Origin: a virus
Direction: 5' to 3' (one strand)
DNA: 64,000 nt
Virus record (IMG/VR): IMGVR_UViG_3300046501_000233
Location: 44,081 to 108,080 of that record
Below, one piece after another: positions 14,963 through 41,963 of this stretch. Both the position numbers and the translations under genes were made by a program. Positions within the stretch are counted from its first letter, which is position 1, and each line of letters starts with the position of its first letter. The notes below the pieces were generated by a model. It was not told the origin of the DNA, did no database searches, and saw only the letters and a program-made list of their open reading frames with translations.

Positions 14963-15318
14963 ATCCATCCCGGAAATGCGGGGCATCCCGCCCCTCGTAG
15001 AGAAAAGACCTTCAGCATCCCGCCGAAGGTCCGGTGTCATCCCCGAGGTTCGGGGAATCGGTAGAGACAGCACTGATCGTTCCAAGGGCCATCCCGGCTC
15101 TCGGTTGGTTTGATCAGCGATGTCGAATTGGTGCGTAGGGCCGGAGACGATCCAGCACCTACACGGTAGGTTCTCAGCGGCGGCGCGGGCGTGCGACGCG
15201 CTCTTTAGGCATCCCTGCTCGTCTTGGTGGAGTGCGAGCTGGGACCGCTGAAGTCGCGCTCGACTGGTGGCACCCAGGAGCGCGAAAAAGAGAGGGCCGC
15301 TTCGCCGCATCCCGCGGC
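14961..15318 (-). promoter_or_regulatory. Structured 5' leader with repeated GGGAU-loop hairpins
   Basis: CATCCC on + strand at 14966, 14984, 15016, 15038, 15090, 15210 and 15308; five copies sit at hairpin tips. Confidence 0.7.
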
Positions 15319-15324
15319 AGAAAC

Positions 15325-15357
15325 GAAAAAGCCCGCCGCGAATGAACGGGGCGGGCT
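15325..15357 (-). terminator. Rho-independent terminator
   Basis: GCCCGCC...GGCGGGC followed by TTTTT on minus strand. Confidence 0.7.
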
Positions 15358-15379
15358 GTCTTGGATCTTGGTGTTGCGC

Positions 15380-15691
15380 TTATGCAGCGCTGCGCAATGC
15401 CTCGGGCTCGATCACCGTGTACTGGGTGAAGGTCTCGGGCTTGCAAAATTCTATGATGCCGTCCTCGTGGAGGAGGACGATGTCTCCTGCGATGCAGGAG
15501 AGGATGCCGAAGGGGGAGAGCGTCGAGAACCCGCCCTTGTTGTTGATTTGCAGCTCACCCGACTGGATGCGCTCGATCAACCACTGCGGCGGCGTGTCGT
15601 CAGCAATCTGACCCCAGAGAGGCAACTTGAAGGCTTGGACAATCGAAAGTCGTTCGAGCAGCTTCACGGGCACTCCATTTGCATTCTGCAT
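15380..15691 (-). CDS. Hypothetical protein (probable start GTG 15667)
   Basis: 'GDIVLLHEDG...CKPETFTQY' pattern seen in many phage small proteins; GGAG before GTG 15667. Confidence 0.6.
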   Translation of the reverse strand: MQNANGVPVKLLERLSIVQAFKLPLWGQIADDTPPQWLIERIQSGELQINNKGGFSTLSPFGILSCIAGDIVLLHEDGIIEFCKPETFTQYTVIEPEALRSAA

Positions 15692-15693
15692 GA

Positions 15694-15723
15694 CTTATAC
15701 GCACGGTTGGGCGCATTTGTCAA
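15694..15723 (-). promoter_or_regulatory. Sigma70-type promoter
   Basis: TTGACA (15723-15718), 18-nt spacer, TATAAG. Confidence 0.65.
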
Positions 15724-15903
15724 CCCCTGTAGAGCAAAAAGCAAAACAAAATGCAAATGAGTTCGAACTGTGGTCAGTTCTTGGCCGCAATGCGGAAAAT
15801 AAACCACGCAACCAGGGCAAAGGGTGTCATCAGCCCGAGACCAACGGCGAGGAGAACGATGCCGGCCGCCTTGCGGGCGGGGCTGATCTTGACGGGGGGT
15901 GCT

Positions 15904-16206
15904 TCAGACATTGGAGGCCTTTGCAGGATGCAGCGGCGTGACCGAGGCGGCGGTGCGCTTCTCCCCGCGCTTACGCGGAGGCTTAGACACCGTCGCCTTG
16001 TCGTTCATGACCGACCGGCGGGTTTTGACGTCGAACTTCGGCTTGAAGCACACGGCGCAGCAGTAGGCCTCACTTCCAACGAGCTTGCCCATGAACACCA
16101 CGGAGGCGGGGATCATCCGGACGAGCGCCCGGACGTCTTCCCCACGCTCCTTGGAGCAGGGCTCGCATCGGTATTCCGATGCTTCAATGTTGAGAACGAT
16201 TGCCAT
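15904..16206 (-). CDS. Zn-finger-like hypothetical protein
   Basis: CxxC...CxxC and a basic C-terminus. Confidence 0.55.
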   Translation of the reverse strand: MAIVLNIEASEYRCEPCSKERGEDVRALVRMIPASVVFMGKLVGSEAYCCAVCFKPKFDVKTRRSVMNDKATVSKPPRKRGEKRTAASVTPLHPAKASNV

Positions 16207-16245
16207 TTGCTTTCGGCTACCATGCGCTTGCAAGCGCGTCAACGA

Positions 16246-17814
16246 TCAAACCTCGCGCGTCGGACGGCTCTGGCCGTTCGGGAAGTCAAACGTCTTCTTG
16301 GCCGGAGCGTTCCCTTCTGTGTCGCCCGCTTCAGCGTCTGGGTGCTCGATCGTTGTCTTGGCGCCGGGGTCCGACGTCAGTTCGCCGGACGAGATCAGCG
16401 CATCGACCTTGGACCAGAACGCGATCTCCTCGTCCTTACTGAACTCGGCGCTCAGCAAGTTGCGATTGACCATCTCGTCCAGCAAGACCGGACGGGAGAT
16501 GCCGCGCTTTTCCCAGAGCTTCACGAGCTGGGCGATCTCGGTGATCTTGTCCTTGGTGTTCGAGAACTCCGTGTTCAGTGCGACCGTCACGTTGCTGTAA
16601 TCGGCGCCGGTCCACTGGCTCATGAACCGGATGGCCTTCTCGATCGTGTCCTGCGCATTGATCGCCATATCGTGGACGACCGAGTGGACTCGGGTCTCCT
16701 GGATGTCGCGCTCGTTCTGCGGCACATACTGGCGGTGCGTGCCCGTGACCGGGTTCAGCGCCATCATGTCCATCTGCATTTCGAGGGCGTTGAGATCCTT
16801 GAAGCCGGACTCGATCGCAGTGCCCTTGGGTTCGACGTAATACCAGCGGCCATTGGCCTCGGGCGCGTAGAGCACTTTCCAAGGGCCGATCTCGAAGCCG
16901 GTCTGATCGTCCGGGTCGATCTGCACGCCGGAGCACGCCAGCATCGGGAAGCGGGCGGCCGACAGGATCGAGCGCTGATCCGACGTCGAGATCCAGTGCT
17001 CGATCTGCTTGTAGGCCAGATCGATGAACACCGGACGCACGAGATAGTCGGCTTCCTTTTCACCGGCATAGAACGTGGCGAACGGCACCTCGGCCATTTC
17101 GATCGGGGTCTCTTCGATAAAGTCCCAGTTCGAACCGCCGGACGTCGCCTTCTGCTCCCAGAGCTGAACGATGCCCTTGGTGCTGCCGGGGTCGACCTCG
17201 ATCACACGCATCTGGTTGTAGAGGACTTCCTTGAAGCCTTCACGCGCCGAGCGCTGACCGCGGATGCGGACGTGGACAGTCTTGGTGTCGCCGCCGACGT
17301 ATTCGTCATAGGCAGCCGCCACGTCGTCCACCTTGTAGAGCTTCATGAAAGGACGAGCGCCGGACTGCTTCTGCTCGGCGAGGTTCTTCATGTTGAAGGT
17401 GTCAGGGTGATCGACCAGGACGTGCGACATGCCGTCCAGAAAGCCGTTGTTGAACATCTGGTGGGCAAAGACGTGCAGGTGATTGCCCTGCAGATCGATG
17501 TCCTGCTGCCACAGGTCGAGATCGGGCGTTGAGTTCGTGAGCTTGAGCAGCGTACGGAACGGCTTGGCTGACGCAGCGTCCACAGCCTCGCGCAGCTTGT
17601 TCAACGCGAAGGTCGAAGCGAGCCGCGCATTGTAACGCAGGTCGCTCTCCTTCTCGTACTGCGGAAGGAAGCTCTTGCCCTGCGCACGCATGGTCTCGGT
17701 GCCGCCATAGACGGCGCGGAGCATCGCGGTGCGCTCCCGCATGGTGGCGGCTGCCGAAGACAGTTCGCCGGGATTACCCGACTGTGGAGACGGGGTGTAA
17801 ACGATATCGACCAT
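16246..17814 (-). CDS. Portal protein (DUF4055-type)
   Basis: 'GGTETMRAQGKSFLPQ..ES..Y.ARL', 'DIDLQGN', 'DLAYKQIEHW..TSDQ' signature; follows TerL. Confidence 0.9.
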   Translation of the reverse strand: MVDIVYTPSPQSGNPGELSSAAATMRERTAMLRAVYGGTETMRAQGKSFLPQYEKESDLRYNARLASTFALNKLREAVDAASAKPFRTLLKLTNSTPDLDLWQQDIDLQGNHLHVFAHQMFNNGFLDGMSHVLVDHPDTFNMKNLAEQKQSGARPFMKLYKVDDVAAAYDEYVGGDTKTVHVRIRGQRSAREGFKEVLYNQMRVIEVDPGSTKGIVQLWEQKATSGGSNWDFIEETPIEMAEVPFATFYAGEKEADYLVRPVFIDLAYKQIEHWISTSDQRSILSAARFPMLACSGVQIDPDDQTGFEIGPWKVLYAPEANGRWYYVEPKGTAIESGFKDLNALEMQMDMMALNPVTGTHRQYVPQNERDIQETRVHSVVHDMAINAQDTIEKAIRFMSQWTGADYSNVTVALNTEFSNTKDKITEIAQLVKLWEKRGISRPVLLDEMVNRNLLSAEFSKDEEIAFWSKVDALISSGELTSDPGAKTTIEHPDAEAGDTEGNAPAKKTFDFPNGQSRPTREV

Positions 17815-17832
17815 TTCTGGTGTGTCCTGACA

Positions 17833-19296
17833 TTACCAGTCAAGGATCACGGCGCGACGGGGGCCGAGCAGCGAGTTGAATGCGTCAGACGCGGCATCGA
17901 CCTGGTCGTCGTTGACACCGAGCGGGAATAGCTCCAGCTCGTCGAGGAACGCTTGGTTCCAGCTGCCTCTGACCAGTTTGACGTTTCGCGCTTCGCACTG
18001 CGCCGCAAATGCGGACGCTCGCGTTTCTTTCGGACCCGTGGGACGGATTGCCTTGACGTTATAGCCGGCGAGCCGGCGGATGAAACTCTGGGCCTGGCTC
18101 TTGCCGGCCTGACCTGGATCTTGCGGAAGGAAGATCTGCGTGGAGCGACCGTCCTCTGCTGCGGTCGAGAAGACCTTTCGCTCGACAGCCAGCGGCGTGT
18201 CGCGCATGCGGATGACGTTCTCGATGTAGAAGATGCCAGCAGAGTCCTTGGACATCTTGACGCCGACCGTGTAGTCGCCGTCCTTCGATGCCGCGAGATC
18301 CCAAGCCCGCACGACCGATCGCTTGGCCGGCAGCTCATTCACGATCTCGAACCACGAGGCCTTGAACATGCCGCCGTCGTCGGACATCGGCTTCTGCTGA
18401 TAGAGAGCCGCAAACGACCGCTCGCCGAGAACGTCCTGACGATCCATCAGAGCGGCGTAGGAGAAACGGTTGGGAGCCAATGGCTCGTTCGGCATGCGCC
18501 GCAGCGGATCGCCGGGCACCGTGCCGTCATCGTTGAGGATCAGCTCCTTGGTGCCGTCTTCCTTGGTGATCGACTTGGTGTACGGGAGCGCCGGCAGATA
18601 CAGGATTTCCCAGGGGAGACCCTTGCCGTCGTTCATCAGCTCGATAAGGCGGCCGGCGATGTCGTCGTAGTGCCAGCGCGTGAGCGTGAGCACGATTGCC
18701 GCGTCTTCTTCGAGACGGGTGTAGACGACGTCTCGATACCAGGCCCACTGGTCTTCGCGGAAACCTGGCGACTCCACTTCCTTTCGATCCTTGATCGGAT
18801 CGTCGATGAGGAAGAGATGGGCGCCCTTACCGGTCGTGCCCGAGCCGACGCCGACCGCGTAATACTGACCGCCCTGCTCCAGCTGCCAATCGTCTGCGGC
18901 GCGCTGGTCGGTTCGGATACGGACATCGGGGTAGAGCGTTTGGAACTGCTCGCCCTTGATGATATCGCGGACGTTACGACCGAAGCCGGTGGCGAAGTCG
19001 GCGTTGTATGAAGCCGAGATGACATTCTTGTGGGGGTTCCGGGCCATGTAATAGGCCGGGAAGCGGCGGGTCGACAGCTCGCTCTTTCCGTGCCGAGGCG
19101 GCGCGAAGAGCATCAGACGCTTGATTTCACCCCGCTCAACAGCCTCAAGCTTCTTCGCCACGATGTGGTGGAAGGGATCGGCGTAGTATTTGGGGAGCGT
19201 GTAAGTGGTGAAGTCGATGAGGTTTTCGCGGCCACGACGGCGATGCAATACCTCGGCTGCCGCCGCCTCGGGTGAGACGTCGGTGAGATCGAGCAC
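17833..19296 (-). CDS. terL: Terminase large subunit
   Basis: Walker A 'PPRHGKS', 'LIDDPIKD', 'TRWHYDD', nuclease 'AWDLA' and 'NDDQVDA'. Confidence 0.95.
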   Translation of the reverse strand: MLDLTDVSPEAAAAEVLHRRRGRENLIDFTTYTLPKYYADPFHHIVAKKLEAVERGEIKRLMLFAPPRHGKSELSTRRFPAYYMARNPHKNVISASYNADFATGFGRNVRDIIKGEQFQTLYPDVRIRTDQRAADDWQLEQGGQYYAVGVGSGTTGKGAHLFLIDDPIKDRKEVESPGFREDQWAWYRDVVYTRLEEDAAIVLTLTRWHYDDIAGRLIELMNDGKGLPWEILYLPALPYTKSITKEDGTKELILNDDGTVPGDPLRRMPNEPLAPNRFSYAALMDRQDVLGERSFAALYQQKPMSDDGGMFKASWFEIVNELPAKRSVVRAWDLAASKDGDYTVGVKMSKDSAGIFYIENVIRMRDTPLAVERKVFSTAAEDGRSTQIFLPQDPGQAGKSQAQSFIRRLAGYNVKAIRPTGPKETRASAFAAQCEARNVKLVRGSWNQAFLDELELFPLGVNDDQVDAASDAFNSLLGPRRAVILDW

Positions 19297-19511
19297 GGTG
19301 AACTTTCAGTTGAAGTTTAGACTCCGCCCGCGGCCTTGCGGCGAACGCCCCCGAAGCGGCGACTTGGGCAGAGTGAAAAAGGAAGACCCCACGCCCGCTG
19401 GCCTAGCGGATCGTCATGTGCTCATGACTCCTGGTGCGGTCAGACGTTCACTGGGTAACTAGATGTCCAGCTGCAGCGTCTGATCCCGAGGGGGGACTTG
19501 TTCTCGTGGCC

Positions 19512-21251
19512 TTACTGGCCGGCGGGCACCTTGCGAACGTAAGGACGTCCGAAGGTCACATCGGCAGCGACAGCGCCAGCGGCGAACGTCAGGTAAGCCT
19601 GAAAGCTCGTCGAGGTGTCGGTGCCAGCCAGTGGCGTGTTGATGGGCGTGCGCAACGTGCCGGACAGCGCGCCCGCTCCGTCCATGACGACGGCTGCAGT
19701 CGAACTGGGCGACAGAGCGGTGTCACAGGATAGCGACAGGGCGCGGAGACCCGTGTGACCCGCAGCGAGGGTGAAGTCGATGCACGCTTCGACCTGATCA
19801 CCGGCAGCGCCGGAATAGGCCGCGGTGTTTTGGAAGTTGACCAGACGGCCAGCCGCATTGCTCGTGCCGGAGACCACGATCTTCTGAGCGGCAGCGCCGT
19901 TCTGCGTGGTTTTCGAGGCAACGATCGTCATGGCGCCGTTTTCCGTCAGCGTCCAGCTGTCGGCCACCTCGCCGGTCGGAGCGGTCGTGCCGGACTTGGT
20001 GCCGGTCGTGCCGGTCAGCGCCGGGTTGCGGCCAACTCCCACGAGCAGGTTGCTCGCATCGAGATACAGGTCATTCAGCGTCGCGGTCTGCTGCATCAGC
20101 GTGTTTGCGACAGCCGCAATTCCGTCGCCGAGCTTGATTGCGCCGAGCCAGTTCGGGTGAAGGAAGTCGCCCATGTCCGTTGCCGGAACAATGGTGCTTT
20201 CCAAGTCAACGACGTGGATCTTGCTCTTGTAGGCCGCGAGATCCGGGTCGGTCGCAAAGCTTCCGATCAGATCGTTGAGCGCGATGCGGTCAGCCTTACG
20301 AGCGGCGGAGAGCGCATTCCACGTTGCGTCACTACGCGGCAGAACCTTGATCGCGATGACATGCTTGGCGCCGCCGTCGATGTAGGCCTTCCAGCAGGTC
20401 TTCAGGTTATTGTAGATCACGGCCGGCGTGTCGGCGCTGCCGGTGAGGTCGTTGGTGCCGGCAAGCAATGAGACCAGCATGGGCGACAGACCGACGACAG
20501 TCGCGGTCTGCCCGGCCATAGCTGCAGCGGTCTCTCCGCCGGTGGCCTTGTTGTAGCCATAGGGCAGGAAGAACCGGCCACGGGTCTTGTTGATGAACTG
20601 CCAGAGCCAGGTCGGGCCGTTCGATCCGGCGGTGATGCTGTCACCTTCCGCGACGAAGCGGGCGTTCAGAGCCTGCAGTGCCACGGTGGTGGTGACTGCG
20701 ACGACCGAAGACTTCGGCGAGTTGGTGCCGAGGGCGTTGGTTTCGCTGATCGTGTAGTTGACAGTACCAGGCTCCGATGCCGAGATGCCTACCACGAGTG
20801 CAGACTGGTCTGCATTGAAGGTCACTCGACCGTCGCTCGGCGAGATGGTCAGGATCGATCCGGACGTCTTTCCGACGATGTTGCCGATGACGGTGCCCGG
20901 AGCAGCGGTTTCCGCGAACGTCGACGCCGACAGGGTCAGAGACCCGAGGGCAACAGGGGTGCGTGGGACAACCGAAACCTTGGAGTCGACCACGCCGGCC
21001 CAGGTAATCACCGCGCCGCCGGCCGGCGCCGATGCGAACGCATATGACCAATTGCCCGACGAGTCGGCGGTGGCAGTGCCTGCGGAAGTGCCGTCCTTAT
21101 AGACGGTAACGGTTGATCCCGGCTTTACGCCGAAGCCGACCCAGGTCTTGTTGTCGAGCGAGCCAGGCATGGCCGGCTCAAGAACTTGGAGGATGGGCTT
21201 GCGGCTGCCGGCAGAACGCCACTGACCCTTACGAAATTTTGGACTGGCCAT
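19512..21251 (-). CDS. SGNH/GDSL esterase with Ig-like and cadherin-like N-terminal domains
   Basis: GDS (AEGDSITAG), GTND and DxxH (DFLHPN) catalytic blocks; Bacterial-Ig-like 'TADSSGNWSY'. Confidence 0.85.
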   Translation of the reverse strand: MASPKFRKGQWRSAGSRKPILQVLEPAMPGSLDNKTWVGFGVKPGSTVTVYKDGTSAGTATADSSGNWSYAFASAPAGGAVITWAGVVDSKVSVVPRTPVALGSLTLSASTFAETAAPGTVIGNIVGKTSGSILTISPSDGRVTFNADQSALVVGISASEPGTVNYTISETNALGTNSPKSSVVAVTTTVALQALNARFVAEGDSITAGSNGPTWLWQFINKTRGRFFLPYGYNKATGGETAAAMAGQTATVVGLSPMLVSLLAGTNDLTGSADTPAVIYNNLKTCWKAYIDGGAKHVIAIKVLPRSDATWNALSAARKADRIALNDLIGSFATDPDLAAYKSKIHVVDLESTIVPATDMGDFLHPNWLGAIKLGDGIAAVANTLMQQTATLNDLYLDASNLLVGVGRNPALTGTTGTKSGTTAPTGEVADSWTLTENGAMTIVASKTTQNGAAAQKIVVSGTSNAAGRLVNFQNTAAYSGAAGDQVEACIDFTLAAGHTGLRALSLSCDTALSPSSTAAVVMDGAGALSGTLRTPINTPLAGTDTSTSFQAYLTFAAGAVAADVTFGRPYVRKVPAGQ

Positions 21252-22108: not shown

Positions 22109-22111
22109 TTG

Positions 22112-22871: not shown

Positions 22872-22943
22872 TGGCACCGGCGTAGGGTATCGAACCCTCT
22901 GACCGAGGTTTTGGAGACCTGGCCGCGACCTACGCTCGCCGAT
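22872..22943 (-). tRNA. tRNA-Trp(CCA) with shortened D-arm
   Basis: Acceptor ATCGGCG/CGCCGGT, anticodon loop CTCCAAA, T-loop TTCGATA, encoded G-CCA end. Confidence 0.75.
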
Positions 22944-22956
22944 GTGTTGATGAATT

Positions 22957-23120
22957 TGGTGGGATGACGGACTCAACCGCCTTGCCTGCTGCTCCCCAAC
23001 AGCGCCCGCCCTCATGCGTGACAGCGCCTGACTAGCGGCGCGTCCGGGCGGCCTGATGGTCTGTCGTAGCCGCGGAGTCACCGCGGGCTGGGGATTCGAC
23101 AGCGCCTATTCAGGGCTCAC
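22957..23120 (-). ncRNA. Structured RNA between tRNAs ending in T-arm-like hairpin and ACCA
   Basis: GGCGG-TTGAGT-CCGTC-ATCCC-ACCA end; upstream hairpin CTGTCG...CGACAG; three copies of GGCGCTGT. Confidence 0.4.
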
Positions 23121-23122: not shown

Positions 23123-23198
23123 TGGCTGGGAAGGCAGGACTCGAACCTGCGACTCTCTGATTAACAATCAGGCGCTCTACCAACTGAGCTACAACCCA
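23123..23198 (-). tRNA. tRNA-Asn(GTT)
   Basis: TAGCTCAGTTGGTAGAGC D-arm, anticodon loop TTGTTAA, GGTTCGAGTCC T-arm, G-CCA end; two U-U mismatches in acceptor stem. Confidence 0.88.
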
Positions 23199-23199: not shown

Positions 23200-23660
23200 A
23201 ACTCCACGGCTTGGAACATGGCCCCATTTAACCTGCCACCCCTATGTCCTTCTTTCATTTGACGATCGGCAGGCACCGCAAAAATTTAAGGGGGCGCCCG
23301 CAGGCAACCCCCATCGACCGCACTTTGGTCTCCTGCCCTTTCGGTCGATGGAGATGCCTGTTTCGGTCGATCGCACAGGTGGGAGTGATCCAATCCAGAA
23401 GTCGATCACTCAGGTCGCAGGCCTACTGGCTATCCTGCCTAGCGGACACCCGTTACCGGGGCCGTGAAACCACCTGATCTCTTGCCCCGATGGTATGCGT
23501 CGCAGTGACCAGTCGGGGCTTACGAAATGGTCTCAGGGTTTTGCAGCAAGCTGATTTGTGCCCTGAGTGCCGCGAGGTAAAGGAGGAGGAGGAACCCCCC
23601 GCGGCTGTCCGGGCATCACAGACGGTCGGCGTGTCTAGCGCCGCTCCCTGCTAAGCTCCG
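23200..23660 (-). ncRNA. Putative multi-hairpin ncRNA region upstream of tRNAs
   Basis: About 460 nt with no credible ORF and at least five strong stems (23301-23360, 23376-23476, 23484-23519, 23532-23567, 23569-23605). Confidence 0.5.
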
Positions 23661-23666
23661 GGGATG

Positions 23667-24812
23667 CTATTGTAGAAAGACAGGCGCAAGCTTCGCGCCG
23701 ATGTCCGAGTAACCCGATCCATTCGGATGGATGCCGTCAAAATAGAACGGCTCGTTGGCAGCGTATGGCCGCCACTGGCTACCCATATCGAAAACCGGAA
23801 TGTTGTTGGTCGAACCAAGATCGCGCACGTACTGCGCGAAGGCGAGCTGCAGCGGATCATCCCCGTTGACACCCTGCGGCTCGATCATCAGCATGACGTC
23901 GCCGGATATTTTCGCGGCGTCGATCACCATCTGATATTGGGCCTTGAAGTCTTCCGGGGTAATTCCGGTGGCAGGATCATTCACGGTCATGGCGATTACC
24001 GTCATGTCCGGACGAAGTGCCTCTATGCCGCCGAGCGTCGCGCCCGTCAGATTGCCGATCGTGGCGCCGAACCAGCCGGCGCGCATGACAAGCACTTCAG
24101 GACGCTGCGAGTTCGAGGCGATCAGGCCGCTAATCAGGCCCGCATTTGCCCAGTGCTCAACGCTGATCGTCGAGTAACCCTCGCCAAGATCGATGGGGCT
24201 GCAAATGGTCGCGTCGCCAAAGCGCTGCGAATTATACATTGTCACGCTGGCGGCGGATGGCTGTTCATCGACGGAGACATAGATACCCCATTCACCGTTG
24301 TAGATGCCCAGCACTTCGACAGTGTCGAATGCCGATGACGGGGTGAACGAAAACTTCACGCCAGTTTCGCCGAGCGCCGCGAGGACGTTCGCGCCAATGG
24401 AGCCAAGGCCGTAATCTGTCCAGCCTCCCATATCGATGCGATTGTCGTGGGCGTGCCAGTCGGACTCGTACTGGCCGCCGATGAACGAGTTCCAGGATGC
24501 CGGCAGCGCCGAGGCGTTCAGCATTTCGGCGAGCCTGGTCGGGTACGATGCCGCAGCCGCGTTGTTCTTCTGGTACGTTCCAGTGGTGTCGCCGGTGGCG
24601 CCGGATCCTGCAGTGATTGAGTTGCCGATGAACAGCAAGCGGGCGTTTCCTGTGCCGGCGATCACCTGAGCCTTTGCTGCGGACCAACTGGACGTATTCT
24701 CTGCCGTCCAATTCGTGAGCCCCGCAATGCCGGCCGGCTTGATGGCACGGGCGCGGCGCTTTTGCCGATGGTTCTGTCGCTTCAAGGCAGCGAGAAGTTC
24801 TTTCTTATTCAT
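23667..24812 (-). CDS. SGNH/GDSL hydrolase
   Basis: 'IGNSITAG', 'TVND' and 'DGIHPN' blocks. Confidence 0.85.
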   Translation of the reverse strand: MNKKELLAALKRQNHRQKRRARAIKPAGIAGLTNWTAENTSSWSAAKAQVIAGTGNARLLFIGNSITAGSGATGDTTGTYQKNNAAAASYPTRLAEMLNASALPASWNSFIGGQYESDWHAHDNRIDMGGWTDYGLGSIGANVLAALGETGVKFSFTPSSAFDTVEVLGIYNGEWGIYVSVDEQPSAASVTMYNSQRFGDATICSPIDLGEGYSTISVEHWANAGLISGLIASNSQRPEVLVMRAGWFGATIGNLTGATLGGIEALRPDMTVIAMTVNDPATGITPEDFKAQYQMVIDAAKISGDVMLMIEPQGVNGDDPLQLAFAQYVRDLGSTNNIPVFDMGSQWRPYAANEPFYFDGIHPNGSGYSDIGAKLAPVFLQ

Positions 24813-29606: not shown

Positions 29607-29848
29607 CAAATTGAAAATCCCGATCGGGAAGAAATGCCGAGACCGACAAACTCTTCCCGATCGGGAGCAGCCCGTGATCGTGCCAACCTCATGTCGCCTT
29701 GCCCTCACAGTCGCGGCGTTGAAGCGGCGGACTGGATCAGCATGGGGTTTGCGGGGCCGGACACCGCCCAATGTCCTGGTTGATAGCCAGGCCACGATCG
29801 CGGGGCAGTTGGGGACCAGTTCCCTCATCGCGAGGTGCGCCGATCCTT
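29607..29848 (-). ncRNA. Structured leader/sRNA ending in terminator-like hairpin
   Basis: Long-range stem CCCGTGATCGTG/CACGATCGCGGG enclosing sub-hairpins; perfect 15-bp inverted repeat TCCCGATCGGGAAGA followed by TTTT; directly downstream of a promoter. Confidence 0.55.
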
Positions 29849-29854
29849 CCCTTT

Positions 29855-29883
29855 TTCATACAGGGGTGGTTTGCATTTGTCAA
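29855..29883 (-). promoter_or_regulatory. Sigma70 promoter driving leftward operon
   Basis: TTGACA, 17-nt spacer, TATGAA; overlapped by TGCAAA motifs. Confidence 0.75.
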
Positions 29884-33925: not shown

Positions 33926-33995
33926 TCCACCCATCGCCACCCCTGCCGGCAATCCGGTCGGCAGGGATCGACTCTCCCGACGCCAGAGGTGCGCC

Positions 33996-34347: not shown

Positions 34348-34452
34348 CAGGTGACGGTCAGGCGTGAAGGTACGTCCTGATTAACAGGCAATGTGGTCGC
34401 AAACGCCGGATGGCTACCATGCACGTTCGATCCGTGCCCTGACCGTCACCTG
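34348..34452 (+). ncRNA. tRNA-like RNA in an extended 15-bp closing helix
   Basis: GGTCAGG/CCTGACC acceptor-like stem stacked on a perfect T-arm GCACG-TTCGATC-CGTGC; CCTG-ATTAA-CAGG arm; long variable arm. Confidence 0.6.
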
Positions 34453-34497
34453 CCCCTCTCCGAAACCATCGACTCTCCCAACGCCACAGGTGTGTCC

Positions 34498-35769: not shown

Positions 35770-35798
35770 CTTGCGCTTCGAAAGCGCATGGTGCAAAT
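35770..35798 (+). promoter_or_regulatory. Putative promoter CTTGC-N18-GCAAAT
   Basis: Same architecture recurs at about 49593 and 59390. Confidence 0.5.
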
Positions 35799-35874
35799 GC
35801 ATGTCGCCGCCAATGCAAATGCAAGCCGAGGCCGTCGAGAGTGGCGAGCGCTCCGCGCTGAAGGAGAGAGTCCG

Positions 35875-36255: not shown

Positions 36256-36621
36256 CAGGAGAAAGCTATGCCGAGAAGATCACCGCAACGACATCGGTTC
36301 AGTACCGGGCGCTTGGTGAGCGCTGCCATCTGTCGCCGCCATGTTTGAGCGTGCGTTCATACCGTGCCGGCGGTGGCCACCGGTCAAGCCAACTCACATA
36401 GCACCCCTATGTTTCGGTGCAGCCTATTCAAGCCACGGTCCCGCAACCATTGCCCGACCTTTCCACGCTGACGCACGACCACGCCACGGTCACAAAACAT
36501 CCGGCCGTTCGAGGCACGTAAGCCTCCAGCCCACGAAGGAGCTGAGATCCTGAGCAGCCCGGCGGGAGCTGAGATCCCGCCAACAATTGCAGCGAGCGCT
36601 TCGCACTAACCGGAGAGAGCA

Positions 36622-36993
36622 ATGACCACCAATCCCCGCATCAGAAGAATCCTGATCGATGCCCGCACCCTCGTGGCCAACCCCATGACGTGGACAACCC
36701 ACAATCTGGCCATCGACTCGAAGGGTAACGCCTGCAACGTCGACGATCCCGATGCGCAGTGCTTCTGCGCCCTCGGTGCGGTCAACCGCAGCGCTCCGAA
36801 CAACAACATCGGCGATGAGGCCTGGGAATTTGTGCGGAAGGCCGCACAGGATCTCTACGACTGCCGCTATCCCGTAGACCTCAACGACGGAACACACGAG
36901 GTGGACGAAGCGCCGCGCCGCGCCATCGTCAACGTCTTCAACCGCGCCATCGAGATTGTCGATACGCCGGCCGGCTGGAGCCATGCGTCATGA
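36622..36993 (+). CDS. DUF6197-like paralog 2
   Basis: 'WTT...AIDSKG...DA.CFCALGA...NDG...FNRAI'. Confidence 0.75.
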   Translation: MTTNPRIRRILIDARTLVANPMTWTTHNLAIDSKGNACNVDDPDAQCFCALGAVNRSAPNNNIGDEAWEFVRKAAQDLYDCRYPVDLNDGTHEVDEAPRRAIVNVFNRAIEIVDTPAGWSHAS

Positions 36994-37361
36994 GTGCGAC
37001 CGTCGAGACCCTGATCAGCGCTCGCGCCATCATCGCCGATCCAGTCAAATGGACGCAACACGACTATGCAAAGGACGCCAGCGGCAACGGCGTTCCACCT
37101 CATTCTCACTCTGCGGTCTGCTTCTGTGCAGGCGGTGCGATCGACAAGACCAGCCCGAGCTGCGTCGCCGCGTGGGATAGTCGCACCGCTCTGCAACAGG
37201 CAGCCGTGGATCTGTACGGCGTCGACTCATTCGTCAAAGTCAACGACGGAGAGTGGGCGGTTGAGGGTATGACTCCGCACGAAGCCATCCTGAAGACCTT
37301 CGACCGCGCCATTGAGATGGCAAAGGCTGAAGCACAGGACACTGAGCCGGAGGTCGTCTGA
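36990..37361 (+). CDS. DUF6197-like paralog 3
   Basis: 'WTQ..YAKD..G...AVCFCAGGA...NDG...FDRAI'. Confidence 0.75.
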   Translation: MSATVETLISARAIIADPVKWTQHDYAKDASGNGVPPHSHSAVCFCAGGAIDKTSPSCVAAWDSRTALQQAAVDLYGVDSFVKVNDGEWAVEGMTPHEAILKTFDRAIEMAKAEAQDTEPEVV

Positions 37362-37597
37362 TGCCCTTTTATCAGGTCTGCGGACAAACCGACATGGACG
37401 AGCCGGTCGATTGCTTCGTTGTTGCGGAGACTCCGCAGCGTGCGGTCGCACTGACCCTCGAACACGAGAAGCTGACTGCCGACGACTTCGATATGGACCT
37501 CGGCGTCTACGAATTTCCCATGGTTACGCTGCCCGAGCACTACCGGGACTGCGTGATCGAGGACCACCTCATCAACCTCACCGAGGTCACCCCATGA
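37361..37597 (+). CDS. Hypothetical acidic protein
   Basis: TGATG coupling. Confidence 0.6.
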   Translation: MPFYQVCGQTDMDEPVDCFVVAETPQRAVALTLEHEKLTADDFDMDLGVYEFPMVTLPEHYRDCVIEDHLINLTEVTP

Positions 37598-38001
37598 CAA
37601 TCGAGGCCAGGGATCTGCAAGCGAGCCTGCGTCTCGCGGCGAGGCTGATGAAGCGCCGTGTGCAACTGGTCTGCGACACCGATGACATCGTCGCCGGACT
37701 CCGGAACTGGCACTATGACCAACTGGGTGTCACATGGACCGCCGACGCCGAGCGTGGCCGCAATGGCTATGCCTGCTACTATTTCGCCAACTTCCGCCGG
37801 CTTCCGTGCGGCAAGAAGGGCAACGGCGCCATCGCTCTGCGTCAACTTTGCGAGCTGATGGACGCTCTCAATCTGCCCATCACACTGCAGAGCACTCCCG
37901 GTCTGTTCGACTGGTATCCCCAGTTCGGCTTCGTCCGCGCTGACACCGAGTTCGGCTTCTATCGGCTTCCGCCTCGGCTCGCCATGGCGGAGGCCGCGTG
38001 A
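37594..38001 (+). CDS. GNAT-like acetyltransferase
   Basis: Motif A-like 'GKKGNG...LRQL' and C-terminal 'LFDWYPQFGF'. Confidence 0.55.
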   Translation: MTIEARDLQASLRLAARLMKRRVQLVCDTDDIVAGLRNWHYDQLGVTWTADAERGRNGYACYYFANFRRLPCGKKGNGAIALRQLCELMDALNLPITLQSTPGLFDWYPQFGFVRADTEFGFYRLPPRLAMAEAA

Positions 38002-38187
38002 TGCTGCACTACGCCCTCAGTGCCAATGAGCGGCTGGTCTATGGCTTCACCGGCCCCAAGTCCGAGCAGTCGGACATGATCTGCGACACGGGCGACCAGC
38101 GCGCCCGGTCAACCTGCATCGAACCCCTCGTCACCTGTCCCAAATGCGCCCGGCGGCTCGCCCTGATGCGCGGCAGAAAGCACTGAC

Positions 38188-38640
38188 ATGCCATTCCTCT
38201 TCGATCACACCCCGACCGCGCAGGAAGTCTTTGACGAGGCCTGCAACTATTTCGCTACCTCAGCCGGACCATCGCGAACGGCGAGAGTGCCAAGCGCTGG
38301 CATTAACGATCGCTGTCTGTATCGCGGCCCGGATGACCGCTGCTGCGTGGCCGGCCACTTCCTGCCGGACGGCCCATACCTCAAGAAGATGGACGAGACC
38401 GATAATTCGGCGATCTTCACATTCATCAACGACGCCAATTACGACGAGTTTCTGCCGTCATGGTTCTCTCAGCACCGGCACCTGCTGACATCCCTGCAGA
38501 ACGTCCATGACGATCATTCGAACTGGGACAGATCGGCTCCCGGAATTGGCTGGCACCGCCAAAACATCTTCCGCGATCTGATCAATGTCGCTGCAGACCA
38601 CAGCGTGGATGCAGGCAAGGCGCGGGAGCTGGCGGCATGA
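38188..38640 (+). CDS. Hypothetical protein (C.YRG...CCxxG family)
   Basis: 'QEVFD...CLYRGPD.RCCVAG...LL..LQ.VHD' phage pattern. Confidence 0.7.
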   Translation: MPFLFDHTPTAQEVFDEACNYFATSAGPSRTARVPSAGINDRCLYRGPDDRCCVAGHFLPDGPYLKKMDETDNSAIFTFINDANYDEFLPSWFSQHRHLLTSLQNVHDDHSNWDRSAPGIGWHRQNIFRDLINVAADHSVDAGKARELAA

Positions 38641-38990
38641 AGACGATCACCGCCCTCACTGCGGCTCGCGATCTGCTGCAAGACATCAACAAGTGGACCC
38701 AGAAGGCCGGTGCTCGCACCGACTTCGGCGCAACCATCCACCCGGCACACGATAACGCTTCCTGTTTCTGCTCCGGCGGCGCATTGGAGCGCATCGTGAT
38801 CAGCCGCTCCGGCGAGGTCGGTGGCGCATTCCATCGCAGCGGCTGGCGGCTCGATCAGGCGGCGCGGCTGCTCGGATATCGCGGCTACATCCACCTCAAC
38901 GACGACACGTCGAAGCCGAGGGAAGAGCAGCATGCGCTGGTCATCCGCATGTTCGACATGGCGATCACCACTGAGGCGGCGCACTCGTGA
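38637..38990 (+). CDS. DUF6197-like paralog 4
   Basis: 'WTQ...ART...A.CFCSGGA...LND...FDMAI'. Confidence 0.75.
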   Translation: MKTITALTAARDLLQDINKWTQKAGARTDFGATIHPAHDNASCFCSGGALERIVISRSGEVGGAFHRSGWRLDQAARLLGYRGYIHLNDDTSKPREEQHALVIRMFDMAITTEAAHS

Positions 38991-39310
38991 GCGCGATGAT
39001 CTGCATCCAAAGTGATGAAGAGGCCAGCGACTTGATCGCATGGCTTGATCATCACCCTCAGCCGGAGGACTTCGACGGACCCAACGTCGAGGAATTGTAC
39101 GGCGAAGCCACCCGCGAGGCGGCGCAAGCCTGGCTTCAGATGATGCGGGACACCGGCGAAGGCCCGGACAGCTATCCGATCCACGCACCCATCCCGCTCC
39201 GGCTGATCCCCGTGATCGATGCCGTCATTGACGACTGGGCCGAGGTTCTCGGCTCACACAACGAAGAGACCTACACCCACACCGTCCACGCAGCCGAGGC
39301 TGAGCCATGA
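38987..39310 (+). CDS. Hypothetical protein
   Basis: GTGA coupling, acidic. Confidence 0.55.
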   Translation: MSAMICIQSDEEASDLIAWLDHHPQPEDFDGPNVEELYGEATREAAQAWLQMMRDTGEGPDSYPIHAPIPLRLIPVIDAVIDDWAEVLGSHNEETYTHTVHAAEAEP

Positions 39311-39443
39311 AAATCGAGATCGTCTACATCGAGAGCGGCAAGACCAAGACCTTCGAGACGCACAACTGCGATCAGGCGCTGAAGTTCATCGACATCCAGG
39401 CGCCGATCAAGATCCTCGCCATCCGCACGTCGGGTCCAACGAA

Positions 39444-39647
39444 ATGACGGACAAGGCGCAGGTTGCCCTCTCCATTCTGCGAGAGGGGTTCGCGAAGGTC
39501 GACAATGGCCAGATGGCGCTGAAGGAAGCCGGCGCCTGGATGTACGAGCAGGCAGTCGAGTTCGGCATCCCGCACGAAGCATGGACAGCAGCGTGGCGCA
39601 TGTGGATGCCGGGCAATGTCCATCAAATCGGGACTCCGATGTCATGA
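39444..39647 (+). CDS. Hypothetical protein
   Basis: ATGA-coupled chain. Confidence 0.5.
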   Translation: MTDKAQVALSILREGFAKVDNGQMALKEAGAWMYEQAVEFGIPHEAWTAAWRMWMPGNVHQIGTPMS

Positions 39648-39919
39648 GCGGCATCTACTCCGACAACCGGTTCAACGACAGCCGGATGTCCCAATATTCG
39701 CACAAGGCACCGCTCGGCCCGCACGGCCGGCGCGCCTTCTTCTCGGTCAACACCAAGGTGCTGTCGGCCTATCCAGGCTGGCACTCCGTCCACATGCACG
39801 CTGACTACGCCTATTCGGTCGACTGCTCCACCCGCGACGTTCTGGGCTGCATCGCTCAGATGCAGGCGGAGTGGGAAGCCGAACTGACGGCGAGGTACGG
39901 CGGCGGGAGGATTTCATGA
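39644..39919 (+). CDS. Hypothetical protein
   Basis: ATGA-coupled chain. Confidence 0.55.
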   Translation: MSGIYSDNRFNDSRMSQYSHKAPLGPHGRRAFFSVNTKVLSAYPGWHSVHMHADYAYSVDCSTRDVLGCIAQMQAEWEAELTARYGGGRIS

Positions 39920-40176
39920 CGGAAAAACTGGTTAGCGTCGCCATCAAGCGCAATGGCGAGATCCACTCCGGCGGCTTCAAGGAGCATTGGCGGGTCCGCG
40001 CCGCGCTCGGCGATGCCGATCCCTACGCCAAGAACAGGACCGACGAGAACGGCTTCCTTACCAGCGAAGGTCGCTTCGTCGGCCGCTGGGAGGCGGGAGA
40101 CATCGCAGCACTGGCCGGACAGATCAGTCGACCGATGGGTCGTGAGTTGCTGTCCGCCGACATCGACAAGTGGTGA
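39916..40176 (+). CDS. Hypothetical protein (GFLTSxGRFVxRxEA family)
   Basis: 'GFLTSEGRFVGRWEA..IA..AGQ...L.S.D.W' widespread phage motif. Confidence 0.7.
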   Translation: MTEKLVSVAIKRNGEIHSGGFKEHWRVRAALGDADPYAKNRTDENGFLTSEGRFVGRWEAGDIAALAGQISRPMGRELLSADIDKW

Positions 40177-40179
40177 CCC

Positions 40180-40461
40180 ATGCGACCGATCTCATTCGAA
40201 GAAGCCAAGCGGCGCTATCCCCATCGCTTCACGATGGAATACGTCCCCGCGTGGTCACGGCATCCGCTACCTCCCCGCGCTGACGGCACCGAGCGCCACT
40301 ATGCGCCGCAATATCGCACTGACCGCGAATGGTACGACAAGACGCTCTTCCCAGGCGAAGGGCATGTCAGTCGCCGCGACAGGCACTGTTACTCCGCCGG
40401 CCAATCGTTTCCGGTCGGCCTGTTCCTCACCGAACCATACCGCATGGGATTTCACCGATGA
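40180..40461 (+). CDS. Hypothetical protein
   Basis: 'YPHRFTMEYVP.W...YAPQY.TD.EWY..T.F'. Confidence 0.65.
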   Translation: MRPISFEEAKRRYPHRFTMEYVPAWSRHPLPPRADGTERHYAPQYRTDREWYDKTLFPGEGHVSRRDRHCYSAGQSFPVGLFLTEPYRMGFHR

Positions 40462-40964
40462 AGCTCTACAGCGTCAACATCAAGATCTGCGCAACGGCTT
40501 ACATCCATGCGGATACGCCGGAACAGGCGATGCAGATCGCAAGGGACATGCAGAACGACTGCCTCGAAGTCCGTGAGGACTGGGATGGTGAGGTGCCCAT
40601 CACCGGCGCTCAGTATGACGACCCTGATCTTCCGGAGGTTAGCCTGTCGCCGGCCATGACCATTCACGGCGTCTTCGATGACGAAGAGGAAGCTGAAGAG
40701 GTTCACGACTTCGGAGAAGCGTTTGCCGTAGGCGACAGCGTCGTCATCTTGGTCGAGGCCACGGGTGCCGACCACGAGGACATTGAGCACACGATCGGTG
40801 CCGGCGCGATCGGCAAGATCGATAGCATCGATGGCGACGCCTATACGGTTGTGATCCCGGTGGATGCTGGCGATGAGCGTCACATTGTCAATGTGTTCGA
40901 CGAAGAGGACGGCCCGATCACCGCGTTTCTAGCTCACGAGGAAGAGAGCGATGCGGTTTCCTGA
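40458..40964 (+). CDS. Acidic hypothetical protein
   Basis: ATGA coupling, codon bias. Confidence 0.6.
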   Translation: MKLYSVNIKICATAYIHADTPEQAMQIARDMQNDCLEVREDWDGEVPITGAQYDDPDLPEVSLSPAMTIHGVFDDEEEAEEVHDFGEAFAVGDSVVILVEATGADHEDIEHTIGAGAIGKIDSIDGDAYTVVIPVDAGDERHIVNVFDEEDGPITAFLAHEEESDAVS

Positions 40965-41286
40965 AGGCTTCAAGCCACCATCGGACGAGACCATCGCCCG
41001 CGTCAACAATCCCGACACGTTCGTGGTTGCGACGTGGAACGGCATTCCGGCTGACAACAGCGGACGTCGGCTCGTGATGTACCTCACGGATCAGATGAAC
41101 GCGATGGGGATGCTCAATCGGTGGAGCCCCTGGCGTAGCGATGCGCAGCAGTATGCGAGCGCGGATGATGCTGAACAGGTGCGTCTGGCGATCAAGCTGC
41201 CGCACCTGCGCGAACTCGCGAAGGTCTACCGCAACACCGAGGCCCACGTCATGACGGGCGGCCTAGAAGGATACGAACTGACATGA
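40951..41286 (+). CDS. Hypothetical protein
   Basis: Overlapping chain. Confidence 0.55.
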   Translation: MRFPEGFKPPSDETIARVNNPDTFVVATWNGIPADNSGRRLVMYLTDQMNAMGMLNRWSPWRSDAQQYASADDAEQVRLAIKLPHLRELAKVYRNTEAHVMTGGLEGYELT

Positions 41287-41481
41287 GAGCGAGCAAAGCT
41301 GAGATCCTGATCCTGAGAAATCAGGTGCAGATCATGACTTCGCTGTCGTTGATTATGCAGCGGCAGAAGGTGCAACTGAAGGAGCGCGGCGTCCACACTG
41401 GCGACGAGCACGCCATGCTGACCGGCTCCATCAGTGAAACGCTGCGCGAGGTCGCCGACGCGAAGACATGGGCGGACTGAC

Positions 41482-41811
41482 ATGAGCATCAGAGCGTTGA
41501 TAGTGCGCGTTCCTGATATCGGCGAAACCTTCACCATCGCCGACAAGTATTCGGCGCACCGTTACCGTGTAACTGGATGGATGCGCCGCTCACGCCGGCA
41601 TTCGCTGATCGCAGGAACCTTCGGTCCTGACAACGTACAGCTGGAATGGTGTATCCGCGACGCCGCTGAGTACATCACCGGCTATGGCGTCTGCGGCATC
41701 ATTCGGCGCGTCGGCGACGTCCATATCGACGGTCGAGTGAGCTGGACGCCAGCCATTCTCGCGGAGGAGAAAGCGCAGGCGATGCGCCTTGTAGGAGAGC
41801 GACTGTACTAG
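41482..41811 (+). CDS. Hypothetical protein
   Basis: Operon context. Confidence 0.5.
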   Translation: MSIRALIVRVPDIGETFTIADKYSAHRYRVTGWMRRSRRHSLIAGTFGPDNVQLEWCIRDAAEYITGYGVCGIIRRVGDVHIDGRVSWTPAILAEEKAQAMRLVGERLY

Positions 41812-41875
41812 ACACAAGAGATAGCCGGAAGGATTCCCCCGTCCGCCGGCTCTGCTGCACCCCAAAGGATGCAGT

Positions 41876-41963
41876 GCGGTTGGAGGGAAACCTGCTTCGC
41901 TGACGCCAGTCTCCAGCTGGCTGTAGGGCGAGGTGGTGGAGAGAGCACTCGCGAACCGCACCA
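41876..41963 (+). ncRNA. Cloverleaf-like RNA ending in ACCA
   Basis: GCGGTT/AACCGC closing stem followed by A-CCA; arms AGG-GAAA-CCT, GCCAG-TCTCCAG-CTGGC and GCGAG..CTCGC. Confidence 0.45.

What the first reader, a model, noticed from the sequence alone, without database searches (positions are those of the whole stretch)
15129..41963. Dispersed family of tRNA-mimic / CCA-terminated RNA elements in intergenic spaces
Seen: besides two real tRNAs, at least five intergenic elements, each on the locally transcribed strand, show tRNA-like features without being canonical tRNAs. These are 15129-15164(-), a minihelix GTGTAGG..CCTACGC-A-CCA; 22957-22997(-), a T-arm-like hairpin plus TCCC-A-CCA; 23528-23567(-), CTCAGGG..CCCTGAG-A-CCA; 34356-34445(+), an acceptor stem plus perfect T-arm; and 41876-41963(+), a cloverleaf ending A-CCA. 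The four ACCA ends all use discriminator A and are followed by A/T-rich trailers (ATTC, AATT, TTTC, ATTC), as tRNA genes usually are. Established: RNase P cleaves helix-NCCA substrates, and several anti-phage systems (PrrC, RloC, PARIS/AriB, tRNA-pyrophosphorylating toxSAS) attack tRNAs. Inference: the phage may use tRNA-like 'punctuation' to process its mRNAs, or release decoy RNAs against tRNA-targeting defences.
Basis: partly seen in the sequence, partly recalled or inferred. Interest (0 to 1): 0.8.

Follow-up and report, generated by a model that had tools for sequence, protein, structure and literature searches.

The report
Mixed intergenic hairpins, one tRNA remnant
The five "tRNA-mimic" elements of this Bradyrhizobium-type temperate phage are not one family: one is a cut-down tRNA gene, one is a lone tRNA-like long hairpin, and three are conserved intergenic RNA hairpins whose ACCA ends are a coincidence of this genome.

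Summary
They are not a family. They share no sequence. A stem followed by ACCA is no commoner than expected (window 21 vs 23.2; intergenic 8 vs 5.0).

In related phages the ACCA tail is mostly absent. For E2 it is in ours only, of 6. For E3 it is in 4 of 15. For E5 it is in 2 of 4.

- **E1 (15129-15164-)** is tRNA-derived. The closest relative has the same acceptor strands and ACCA around an 86-nt tRNA-Tyr-like gene. Ours has lost positions 8-48, leaving acceptor plus T-arm hairpin. Other relatives carry tRNA-Asn or nothing there.
- **E4 (34348-34452+)** has a perfect 15-bp stem on a canonical T-arm, but no NCCA, no Rfam hit and no homologue in ten related records.
- **E3** is a covarying, terminator-like hairpin ending a conserved ~150-nt structured RNA.
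- **E2 and E5** are conserved structured RNAs of unknown role.

No data show any RNA ends. Cutting of E1 by RNase P is inferred only.

Earlier unchecked notes of this scan describe tRNA top-half minihelices between genes of other phages. E1 resembles them but is unique to this genome.

The parts
15129..15164 (-). E1: tRNA-derived minihelix. It has a 7-bp acceptor stem GTGTAGG/CCTACGC, one U, a 6-bp hairpin derived from a T-arm, and ACCA. It is an internal deletion of a tRNA-Tyr-like gene.
   Evidence: RNA fold -21.2 kcal/mol, z -4.4. L004:9506-9591 has the same ends around 51 more bases. The 3' 16-mer is shared with canonical phage tRNA-Tyr genes.
22957..23053 (-). E2 block: conserved structured RNA between tRNA-Asn and the tRNA-Trp-like gene.
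   Evidence: 27 predicted pairs, 7 with compensatory changes in 6 sequences. The tail is ACCA only in this genome, while ATTC downstream is invariant.
23520..23666 (-). Conserved ~150-nt structured RNA after gene 23667-24812(-).
   Evidence: 16-sequence alignment: 33 pairs, 9 with compensatory changes, and indels not in threes. Tail ACCA in 4 of 15 distinct copies.
34348..34452 (+). E4: 105-nt hairpin. A perfect 15-bp stem (34348-34362 / 34438-34452) abuts a canonical T-arm (34421-34437). The interior is non-canonical and there is no NCCA.
   Evidence: Sequence; T-arm scan; no Rfam hit; absent from ten related records; other long hairpins at the same spot in G001 and G003.
41854..41967 (+). 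E5: conserved non-coding element made of a small hairpin plus a multibranch closed by GCGGTT/AACCGC. It lies upstream of a small terminator-like hairpin and gene 42022-42258.
   Evidence: 84% identical in G004 where the flanks are about 70%. The closing stem has a C-G to U-A change. The tail is ACCA, ACTA, ACCA or deleted in the 4 copies. A 1-nt indel between near-identical relatives excludes coding.
23123..23198 (-). tRNA-Asn (GTT), canonical, CCA encoded.
   Evidence: ARAGORN and Rfam, 63.7 bits.
22872..22943 (-). tRNA-Trp(CCA)-like gene with a short D-arm, discriminator G and CCA encoded.
   Evidence: Below ARAGORN default. Its only Rfam hit is the tRNA-Sec model at 22.7 bits, below the gathering score. 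It is homologous to tRNA-Trp genes called in most relatives, with covariation at pair 28:42.

Best explanation
The five elements have separate origins, and their shared ACCA end is a coincidence of this genome.

(1) E1 is what remains of a tRNA-Tyr-like gene after an internal deletion that removed the D-arm, anticodon arm and variable arm (positions 8-48). This left the acceptor stem joined to the T-arm, plus ACCA. It lies in a hypervariable 'tRNA slot' between a conserved block and the leader of the head-scaffold gene. Relatives there carry tRNA-Asn, tRNA-Asn plus hairpins, other inserts, or nothing. It is most likely a decay product of rapid tRNA-gene turnover. As an RNA it would be a stable 13-bp hairpin with 3' ACCA, a shape that RNase P can cut. 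That last step is inferred, not shown.

(2) E4 is a lineage-specific long hairpin whose tip carries a T-arm. It may be built from a decayed long-arm tRNA. It occupies a spot where related phages have unrelated long hairpins, so the conserved property there is 'a strong stem-loop between two early genes' (processing, stability or termination; inferred).

(3) E3 is the terminal, terminator-like hairpin of a conserved ~150-nt structured RNA downstream of a tail-fibre/lipase-like gene.

(4) E2 is the 3' hairpin of a conserved structured spacer RNA in the tRNA operon.

(5) E5 is a conserved structured element at the end of an early transcription unit.

For E2, E3 and E5 the stems are under selection, but the ACCA is not.
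For: - No shared sequence among the elements beyond one 11-mer, CGCACCAATTC, in E1 and E5.
- Stem+ACCA is at the expected frequency.
- E1: L004 has identical acceptor strands and ACCA (18/18) around a tRNA-like gene. That gene has an anticodon-like loop TTGTAAC (GTA) and the T-arm GCTGG-TTCAACT-CCAGC. Canonical tRNA-Tyr(GTA) genes of other phages end in the same CCAGCCCTACGCACCA. Relatives have tRNA-Asn at the same slot.
- E2: covarying stems; tails are ACCA, ACCC, TCT, TTC, ACTC and AGC.
- E3: the stem covaries (CTCAGGG/CCCTGAG, GCCCGAG/CTCGGGC, GCCCGACG/CGTCGGGC, GCCCGATG/CATCGGGC). The tails are ACCA 4, ACCT 3, ACCC 2 (3 before the L006/L013 duplicate is collapsed), ACTT 2 and four others, followed by T-rich runs.
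- E5: ACCA in 2 of 4 copies.
- E4: a 15-bp perfect stem, no NCCA, no Rfam match, no homologue. Different long hairpins sit at the same position in G001 and G003.
Against: - The acceptor strands and ACCA of E1 are 18/18 identical to L004, while the flanks are 70-84% and the T-arm 76% identical. This hints at selection on the E1 stem and tail, so E1 may not be a neutral remnant.
- The deletion is strikingly exact (positions 8-48).
- The L004 element itself is not a canonical tRNA: ARAGORN finds none at 90% or above, and the Rfam tRNA-Sec model gives 20.3 bits, E 0.07.
- An (A)ATTC box is conserved a few bases after E1's slot, E2 and E5. This could point to a shared processing signal that I have not explained.
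- Intergenic stem+ACCA is nominally 1.6 to 2.2 times the expectation.
- There are no transcript data.
Confidence: 0.72

Rival explanations
1. E1 (and perhaps E4) is a working tRNA-type processing signal, like a plant-mitochondrial t-element. Host RNase P (5' side) and 3' trimming enzymes would cut the late polycistronic RNA at the minihelix. This would separate the upstream message from the scaffold-capsid message and release a 36-nt minihelix RNA. In relatives the whole tRNA-Asn in the same slot would do this job.
For: - E1 has the shape of the classical RNase P model substrate: acceptor stem, T-stem-loop and RCCA, cleaved efficiently at the canonical site (PMC11143913).
- t-elements and acceptor-like stem-loops mark mRNA ends in plant mitochondria (PMC1920247).
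- The same slot holds a real tRNA in 10 or more relatives.
- The acceptor strands and ACCA are 18/18 conserved against L004 while the T-loop drifted.
Against: - The minihelix form is found in this genome only.
- Relatives L007 and L028 have nothing in the slot, so no element is required there.
- The T-loop consensus is lost (ATCGTCT).
- E4's 15-bp stem pairs leader with trailer and has no free NCCA, which should hinder RNase P.
Confidence: 0.25
2. One reading: one functional family of CCA-terminated tRNA mimics, released as decoys against tRNA-targeting defences or used genome-wide as punctuation.
For: All five are intergenic and on the sense strand. Four end in ACCA followed by an A/T-rich trailer. 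The stems of E2, E3 and E5 covary.
Against: - The ACCA is not conserved in relatives.
- There is no enrichment of stem+ACCA.
- The elements share no sequence or fold.
- None has an anticodon stem-loop, which is the target of PrrC, RloC and similar nucleases (established knowledge).
- None matches the Rfam tRNA model.
Confidence: 0.05
3. The hairpins mark ordinary endonuclease processing sites. In this reading RNase E cuts in the conserved single-stranded (A)AUUC or U-rich box just 3' of each stem, or RNase III cuts in the long E4 stem, as at the intergenic hairpins of T7 early RNA. The stems would then protect the new 3' ends.
For: ATTC is invariant after E2 in 6 of 6 copies, AATT after E5 in 4 of 4, and ATTCG after the E1 slot in most relatives. 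WTTC-rich tails follow E3. E4 stacks 15+5 bp, and relatives have other long hairpins there.
Against: AATTC is only about twofold enriched in spacers (9 vs 4.2), as expected for an AT-rich word in a 60% G+C genome. No cleavage data exist. The RNase E preference is taken from enterobacteria and recalled from memory.
Confidence: 0.15
4. All five are chance hairpins with no ancestry or function.
For: Stem+ACCA is at chance frequency. The E2 fold is no better than shuffles, z -0.25.
Against: E1 is homologous to a tRNA-like gene. E2, E3 and E5 are conserved with compensatory changes. A 15-bp perfect stem next to a canonical T-arm is very unlikely by chance.
Confidence: 0.03

Closest known systems
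Synthetic tRNA minihelix / RNase P model hairpin substrates (acceptor stem + T-stem-loop + RCCA; McClain, Guerrier-Takada and Altman, as reviewed in PMC11143913)
   Same: E1 has a 7-bp acceptor stem continued by the T-stem, a single-stranded 3' ACCA, and no D, anticodon or variable arms. It arose from a tRNA-like gene by loss of exactly positions 8-48.
   Different: E1 is natural and genome-encoded. It has one extra U at the junction. Its T-loop has mutated (ATCGTCT) so that the stem grew to 6 bp with a 5-nt loop. Cleavage and charging are untested.
t-elements of plant mitochondria (PMC1920247)
   Same: These are non-canonical tRNA-like folds or acceptor-like stem-loops between genes on the sense strand, some with a perfect T-arm (as in E4). 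They are proposed or shown to direct RNase P/Z cuts that form mRNA ends.
   Different: Their transcript ends were mapped; here none are. E1 and E4 are each unique to one phage genome rather than conserved. E4 has its ends sealed by 8 extra base pairs.
Phage tRNA pseudogenes and variable tRNA gene sets (for example 'tRNA-Pseudo-CCA' annotated in Bradyrhizobium phage BDU-MI-1, KY940711)
   Same: E1 and the tRNA-Trp-like gene sit in tRNA slots whose content differs between close relatives (Asn, Trp, Met, Phe, Gly, Cys). They score below tRNA-finder thresholds.
   Different: E1 is not a point-mutated pseudogene but a clean internal deletion that leaves a stable hairpin.
T4 species 1 and 2 RNAs (rnaC, rnaD): small stable RNAs in the T4 tRNA cluster (from my own knowledge, not checked here)
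   Same: The E2 block is a conserved structured RNA between tRNA genes, so it would be co-transcribed with them and freed by their processing.
   Different: There is no sequence relation and no conserved CCA end. RNA stability is unknown.
Intrinsic (Rho-independent) terminators
   Same: E3 has a G+C-rich covarying stem followed in most relatives by a T-rich run, at the end of a gene and its 3' region.
   Different: It has a 22-nt invariant loop with an inner hairpin, 2-4 bases (ACC) before the T run, and a weak T run in this genome (ACCATTTCG). It is not picked up by the simple scan.

Membership tests
Canonical tRNA (Rfam RF00005 / ARAGORN) | Cloverleaf scoring at or above the Rfam gathering score (29 bits), or called by ARAGORN at default settings | tested here: not met
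   Only tRNA-Asn passes. No hit to any of E1-E5 at E<=10, even on 161-281-nt stretches. ARAGORN sees E4 only at -ps80, together with 104 other calls.
Canonical tRNA (Rfam RF00005 / ARAGORN) | Anticodon stem with a 7-nt loop | tested here: not met
   E1, E2 and E3 have none. E4 has CCTG-ATTAA-CAGG with a 5-nt loop. E5 has a long irregular central arm.
tRNA minihelix / t-element-like processing signal | 7-bp acceptor stem stacked directly on a T-stem, with the 3' strand of the T-stem abutting the 3' acceptor strand | tested here: met
   E1 is 7 bp + U + 6 bp. In E4 the T-arm 34421-34437 abuts the stem strand 34438-34452. E2, E3 and E5 do not meet this.
tRNA minihelix / t-element-like processing signal | T-loop consensus TTCRANN | tested here: inconclusive
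   E4 has TTCGATC, which meets it. E1 has ATCGTCT, which does not, while its full-length relative L004 has TTCAACT.
tRNA minihelix / t-element-like processing signal | Free single-stranded 3' NCCA | tested here: inconclusive
   E1 has ACCA after the stem, which meets it. In E4 the position is base-paired and reads GTCA, which does not.
tRNA minihelix / t-element-like processing signal | Descent from a tRNA gene | tested here: met
   E1 against L004:9506-9591 and against canonical tRNA-Tyr genes. No ancestor was found for E4.
tRNA minihelix / t-element-like processing signal | Cleavage by RNase P/Z at the element's ends | not testable with these tools
   No transcript data or enzyme assay is available.
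   Pairwise and genome-wide blastn-short finds only an 11-mer shared by E1 and E5. The folds differ.
   E2 1 of 6, E3 4 of 15, E5 2 of 4.
Intrinsic terminator (E3) | G+C-rich stem followed at once by a U tract | tested here: inconclusive
   The stem is G+C-rich and covaries. T-rich tails occur in most relatives, for example ACCTATTTTTCT and TATTTTCGATTT. The tail in this genome is weak, and the loop is too long for the consensus scan.

The most novel reading that the evidence does not exclude
This phage lineage may recycle decayed tRNA genes as RNA-processing hairpins. E1 would be a natural minihelix and E4 a sealed tRNA-like fold. Both would be cut by host tRNA-maturation or double-strand RNases to punctuate the late and early polycistronic RNAs. 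The whole tRNAs in the same slots of relatives would do the same job. E1 would then be a naturally occurring, genome-encoded acceptor/T-arm minihelix caught just after its birth from a tRNA gene.
Probability: 0.2. Interest if true: 0.6.

Novelty: new member of a known kind. Interest (0 to 1): 0.3.

Why it matters
The result mainly shows the limits of pattern-spotting. A hairpin followed by ACCA is a chance-level pattern in a 60% G+C phage, and comparison with relatives removes three of the four CCA ends.

The useful residue is small but concrete. First, there is a clean natural example of a tRNA gene collapsing into an acceptor/T-arm minihelix, in a slot where relatives keep whole tRNAs inside the capsid-operon leader. 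This gives a direct test case for tRNA-type punctuation of phage mRNAs. Second, three conserved structured non-coding RNAs (the E2 block, the 150-nt E3 RNA and E5) in Bradyrhizobium-type temperate phages are absent from Rfam.

Tried and rejected
- **Rfam:** gathering and E<=10 scans of the whole window and of short stretches found nothing for E1-E5.
- **Relaxed ARAGORN:** it does not separate the elements from noise, giving 5 calls at -ps90, none of them ours, and 105 at -ps80.
- **E5 as a small protein:** rejected. The 31-codon frame in L047 is broken by a 1-nt insertion in the near-identical L048.
- **E3 region as coding:** rejected. Indels are not in threes and stops occur in all frames.
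- **E4 as attP:** rejected. The integrase and a 47-nt copy of the host tRNA-Met 3' part lie elsewhere, at genome 21919-23338.
- **E4 relatives:** a pattern scan of viral contigs gave only unrelated tRNA-Phe genes and chance hits. Searches of ten related records found nothing.
- **More E1 copies:** the viral-contig scan found only L004 and unrelated tRNA-Tyr genes. The metagenome scan gave one chance hit inside a gene.
- **More E3 copies:** none beyond the relatives already held.
- **CCAATTC as a genome-wide motif:** 11 copies, no more than expected overall.
- **Early-gene protein as a probe for relatives:** no hits.

Full report
**Source.** The window is bases 44081-108080 of a 108,080-bp IMG/VR phage record with direct terminal repeats. 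It is about 60% G+C. Its nearest named relative is Bradyrhizobium phage BDU-MI-1.

My codon-usage gene call puts minus-strand genes at 1-31941 and plus-strand genes from 33302. PHROGs names 13005-13982(-) major head protein and 14078-14986(-) head scaffold. All five elements lie in gaps of that gene call, on the local coding strand.

**Observation.** ARAGORN and Rfam find only tRNA-Asn at 23123-23198(-).

It is below threshold here, with the Rfam tRNA-Sec model at 22.7 bits. It aligns with tRNA-Trp(CCA) genes that ARAGORN calls in most of 27 related loci, with covariation in the anticodon stem.

None of E1-E5 reaches the Rfam tRNA model at E<=10, even on short stretches. Relaxed ARAGORN reports E4 only at a setting that yields 105 calls in 64 kb.

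**Chance.**
- A stem of at least 7 bp (G-U allowed, loop 3-40) directly followed by ACCA occurs 21 times in the window on both strands. From the number of stem ends and the ACCA frequency, 23.2 are expected. For stems of at least 6 bp the figures are 50 against 55.8.
- In sense-strand spacers the counts are 5 against 2.3 and 8 against 5.0. ACCA ranks 23rd and 35th of 256 possible tails, and TTTT-type tails lead.
- Dinucleotide shuffles give fewer (8 against 3.1, none of 200 reaching 8). Shuffling destroys all hairpins, so this measures hairpin richness, not a link to ACCA.
- The five elements share no sequence apart from CGCACCAATTC in E1 and E5, and none has a paralogue in the genome.

**E1.** The RNA folds as a 7-bp stem, one U, a 6-bp stem and a 5-nt loop, then ACCA (-21.2 kcal/mol, z -4.4).

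In the closest relative (L004, 86% identity in a neighbouring protein) the same GTGTAGG and CCTACGC-ACCA enclose 51 more bases. These include an anticodon-like loop TTGTAAC (GTA, Tyr), a long variable region and the T-arm GCTGG-TTCAACT-CCAGC. Ours keeps GTGTAGG-T-GCTGG-ATCGTCT-CCGGC-CCTACGC-ACCA, which is a deletion of positions 8-48.

Canonical tRNA-Tyr(GTA) genes of unrelated phages end in the same CCAGCCCTACGCACCA. The L004 element is itself sub-threshold: ARAGORN finds none at 90% or above, and the tRNA-Sec model gives 20.3 bits.

The slot is hypervariable:
- tRNA-Asn alone in L009, L012, L025, L026 and L029;
- tRNA-Asn plus hairpins in L006, L008, L011 and L013;
- other inserts in L005 and L016;
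- nothing in L007 and L028.

The flank CCAATTCGCCAGCA is kept throughout, so the 'CCA' of E1 overlaps a conserved flank.

The acceptor strands plus ACCA are 18/18 identical to L004. The flanks are 70-84% identical and the T-arm is 13/17. This suggests, but does not prove, constraint on the stem. No other copy exists in the viral or metagenome collections.

**E2.** It is the 3' hairpin of a block (about 23053-22957) conserved in six distinct sequences, with 7 of 27 pairs changed on both sides. The hairpin covaries (GGCGG/CCGTC against GGCCC/GGGTC), but its loop is not a T-loop in L008, L011 or L014. The tail reads ACCA only here, and ACCC, TCT, TTC, ACTC and AGC elsewhere. ATTC just downstream is invariant.

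**E3.** It ends a ~150-nt non-coding block (23666-23520) aligned in 16 sequences, with 33 pairs, 9 of them compensatory. The E3 stem covaries, and its loop ACAAATCAGCnnGCTGCAAAAC is invariant. After the stem, 4 of 15 distinct copies read ACCA. The rest read ACCT, ACCC, ACTT, ATTT, ATCT, TATT or CACT, mostly followed by T-rich runs. I read this as terminator-like.

**E4.** The stem is a perfect 15 bp (34348-34362 with 34438-34452), so the would-be discriminator and CCA positions are paired and read GTCA (lead from note e1-6009399). A canonical T-arm abuts it.

It has no Rfam hit and no homologue in ten related records. G001 and G003 have unrelated long hairpins at the same spot. T-arm-like motifs number 9 in the genome against about 2 in shuffles. 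The four intergenic ones are tRNA-Asn, E4, a palindrome at 35772-35788, and a host tRNA-Met fragment.

**E5.** It is 84% identical in G004 where the flanks are about 70%. Four copies keep the closing stem through a C-G to U-A change, and the boxes GGAGGGAAACC and GGTGGAGAGAGCACTCGCGAACC. The central arm varies. The tail is ACCA, ACTA, ACCA or deleted. A 1-nt indel between near-identical relatives rules out coding.

**Reading.** The elements are heterogeneous: one tRNA remnant, one lone tRNA-like hairpin, and three conserved structured RNAs. The ACCA ends do not survive comparison with relatives.

The idea of tRNA-type punctuation remains open for the E1 slot only. RNase P cleaves acceptor/T-stem-loop model hairpins with RCCA (PMC11143913). 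Plant mitochondria use t-elements and acceptor-like stem-loops to form mRNA ends (PMC1920247). This is inference; no RNA data exist.

Earlier notes of this scan describe tRNA top-half minihelices between genes of other phages. They are unchecked by me, and unlike those, E1 is not conserved.

Noticed in passing
outside the window: G000 genome 21919-23148 (+) and 23292-23338 (+); L123:1420-2649 and about 2793-2839: A tyrosine integrase (Pfam PF00589) is followed about 150 nt downstream by a 47-nt copy of the 3' part of Bradyrhizobium tRNA-Met(CAT), running from the anticodon stem to CCA. This is a classic attP core and another 'CCA-terminated tRNA-like' piece with an ordinary explanation. It also points to a Bradyrhizobium/Xanthobacteraceae host.
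   Followed up: yes
window 23520-23666 (-): A conserved ~150-nt structured non-coding RNA with five helices and compensatory changes. It has an invariant CUCCUCCUUU (anti-Shine-Dalgarno-like) stretch predicted to pair with GCGGGGG. It is not in Rfam.
   Followed up: partly
window 23200-23420 (-): Further conserved non-coding blocks lie upstream of tRNA-Asn. 23207-23286 is 84-86% identical in several relatives. 23315-23413 holds a direct repeat ATCGACCGAAA twice.
   Followed up: no
window 14987-15330 (-): The leader of the scaffold gene is conserved and repeats (C)GGGATG four or five times in small hairpin loops. A terminator-like hairpin (15032-15006) lies just before the start codon, and another at 15350-15332.
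   Followed up: partly
window 33981-33991, 34482-34492, 41974-41984 (+): The motif CGCCA(C/G)AGGTG occurs three times, always on the + strand just upstream of early genes. It is kept in relatives G001 and G003. Three matches are within the chance range for the window (21 of 100 shuffles).
   Followed up: partly
genome-wide spacers, e.g. window 29840-29870 and 35790-35830: AATGCAA / CAAATGC / GCTTGCA words are enriched about sevenfold in sense-strand spacers (14 vs 2.0). They are probably promoter or operator boxes.
   Followed up: no
window 60124-60139 (-), inside the UvrD-like helicase gene 59444-61066 (+): An exact 16-mer of the tRNA-Asn T-arm (CAGGTTCGAGTCCTGC) lies antisense within a coding region (blastn-short E 0.001). 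Its meaning is unknown and it may be chance.
   Followed up: no
related loci L003-L029: tRNA gene content differs between close relatives (Asn, Trp, Met, Phe, Gly, Cys), and the same tRNA (Asn) occupies different slots in different phages. tRNA genes seem to move between fixed intergenic slots.
   Followed up: partly
E1 slot, E2 and E5 tails (window 15125-15128, 22952-22956, 41964-41967) and their relatives: An (A)ATTC(G) box 0-5 nt after the closing stem is more conserved than the ACCA itself: 6 of 6 for E2, 4 of 4 (AATT) for E5, and most relatives at the E1 slot. This is unexplained.
   Followed up: partly
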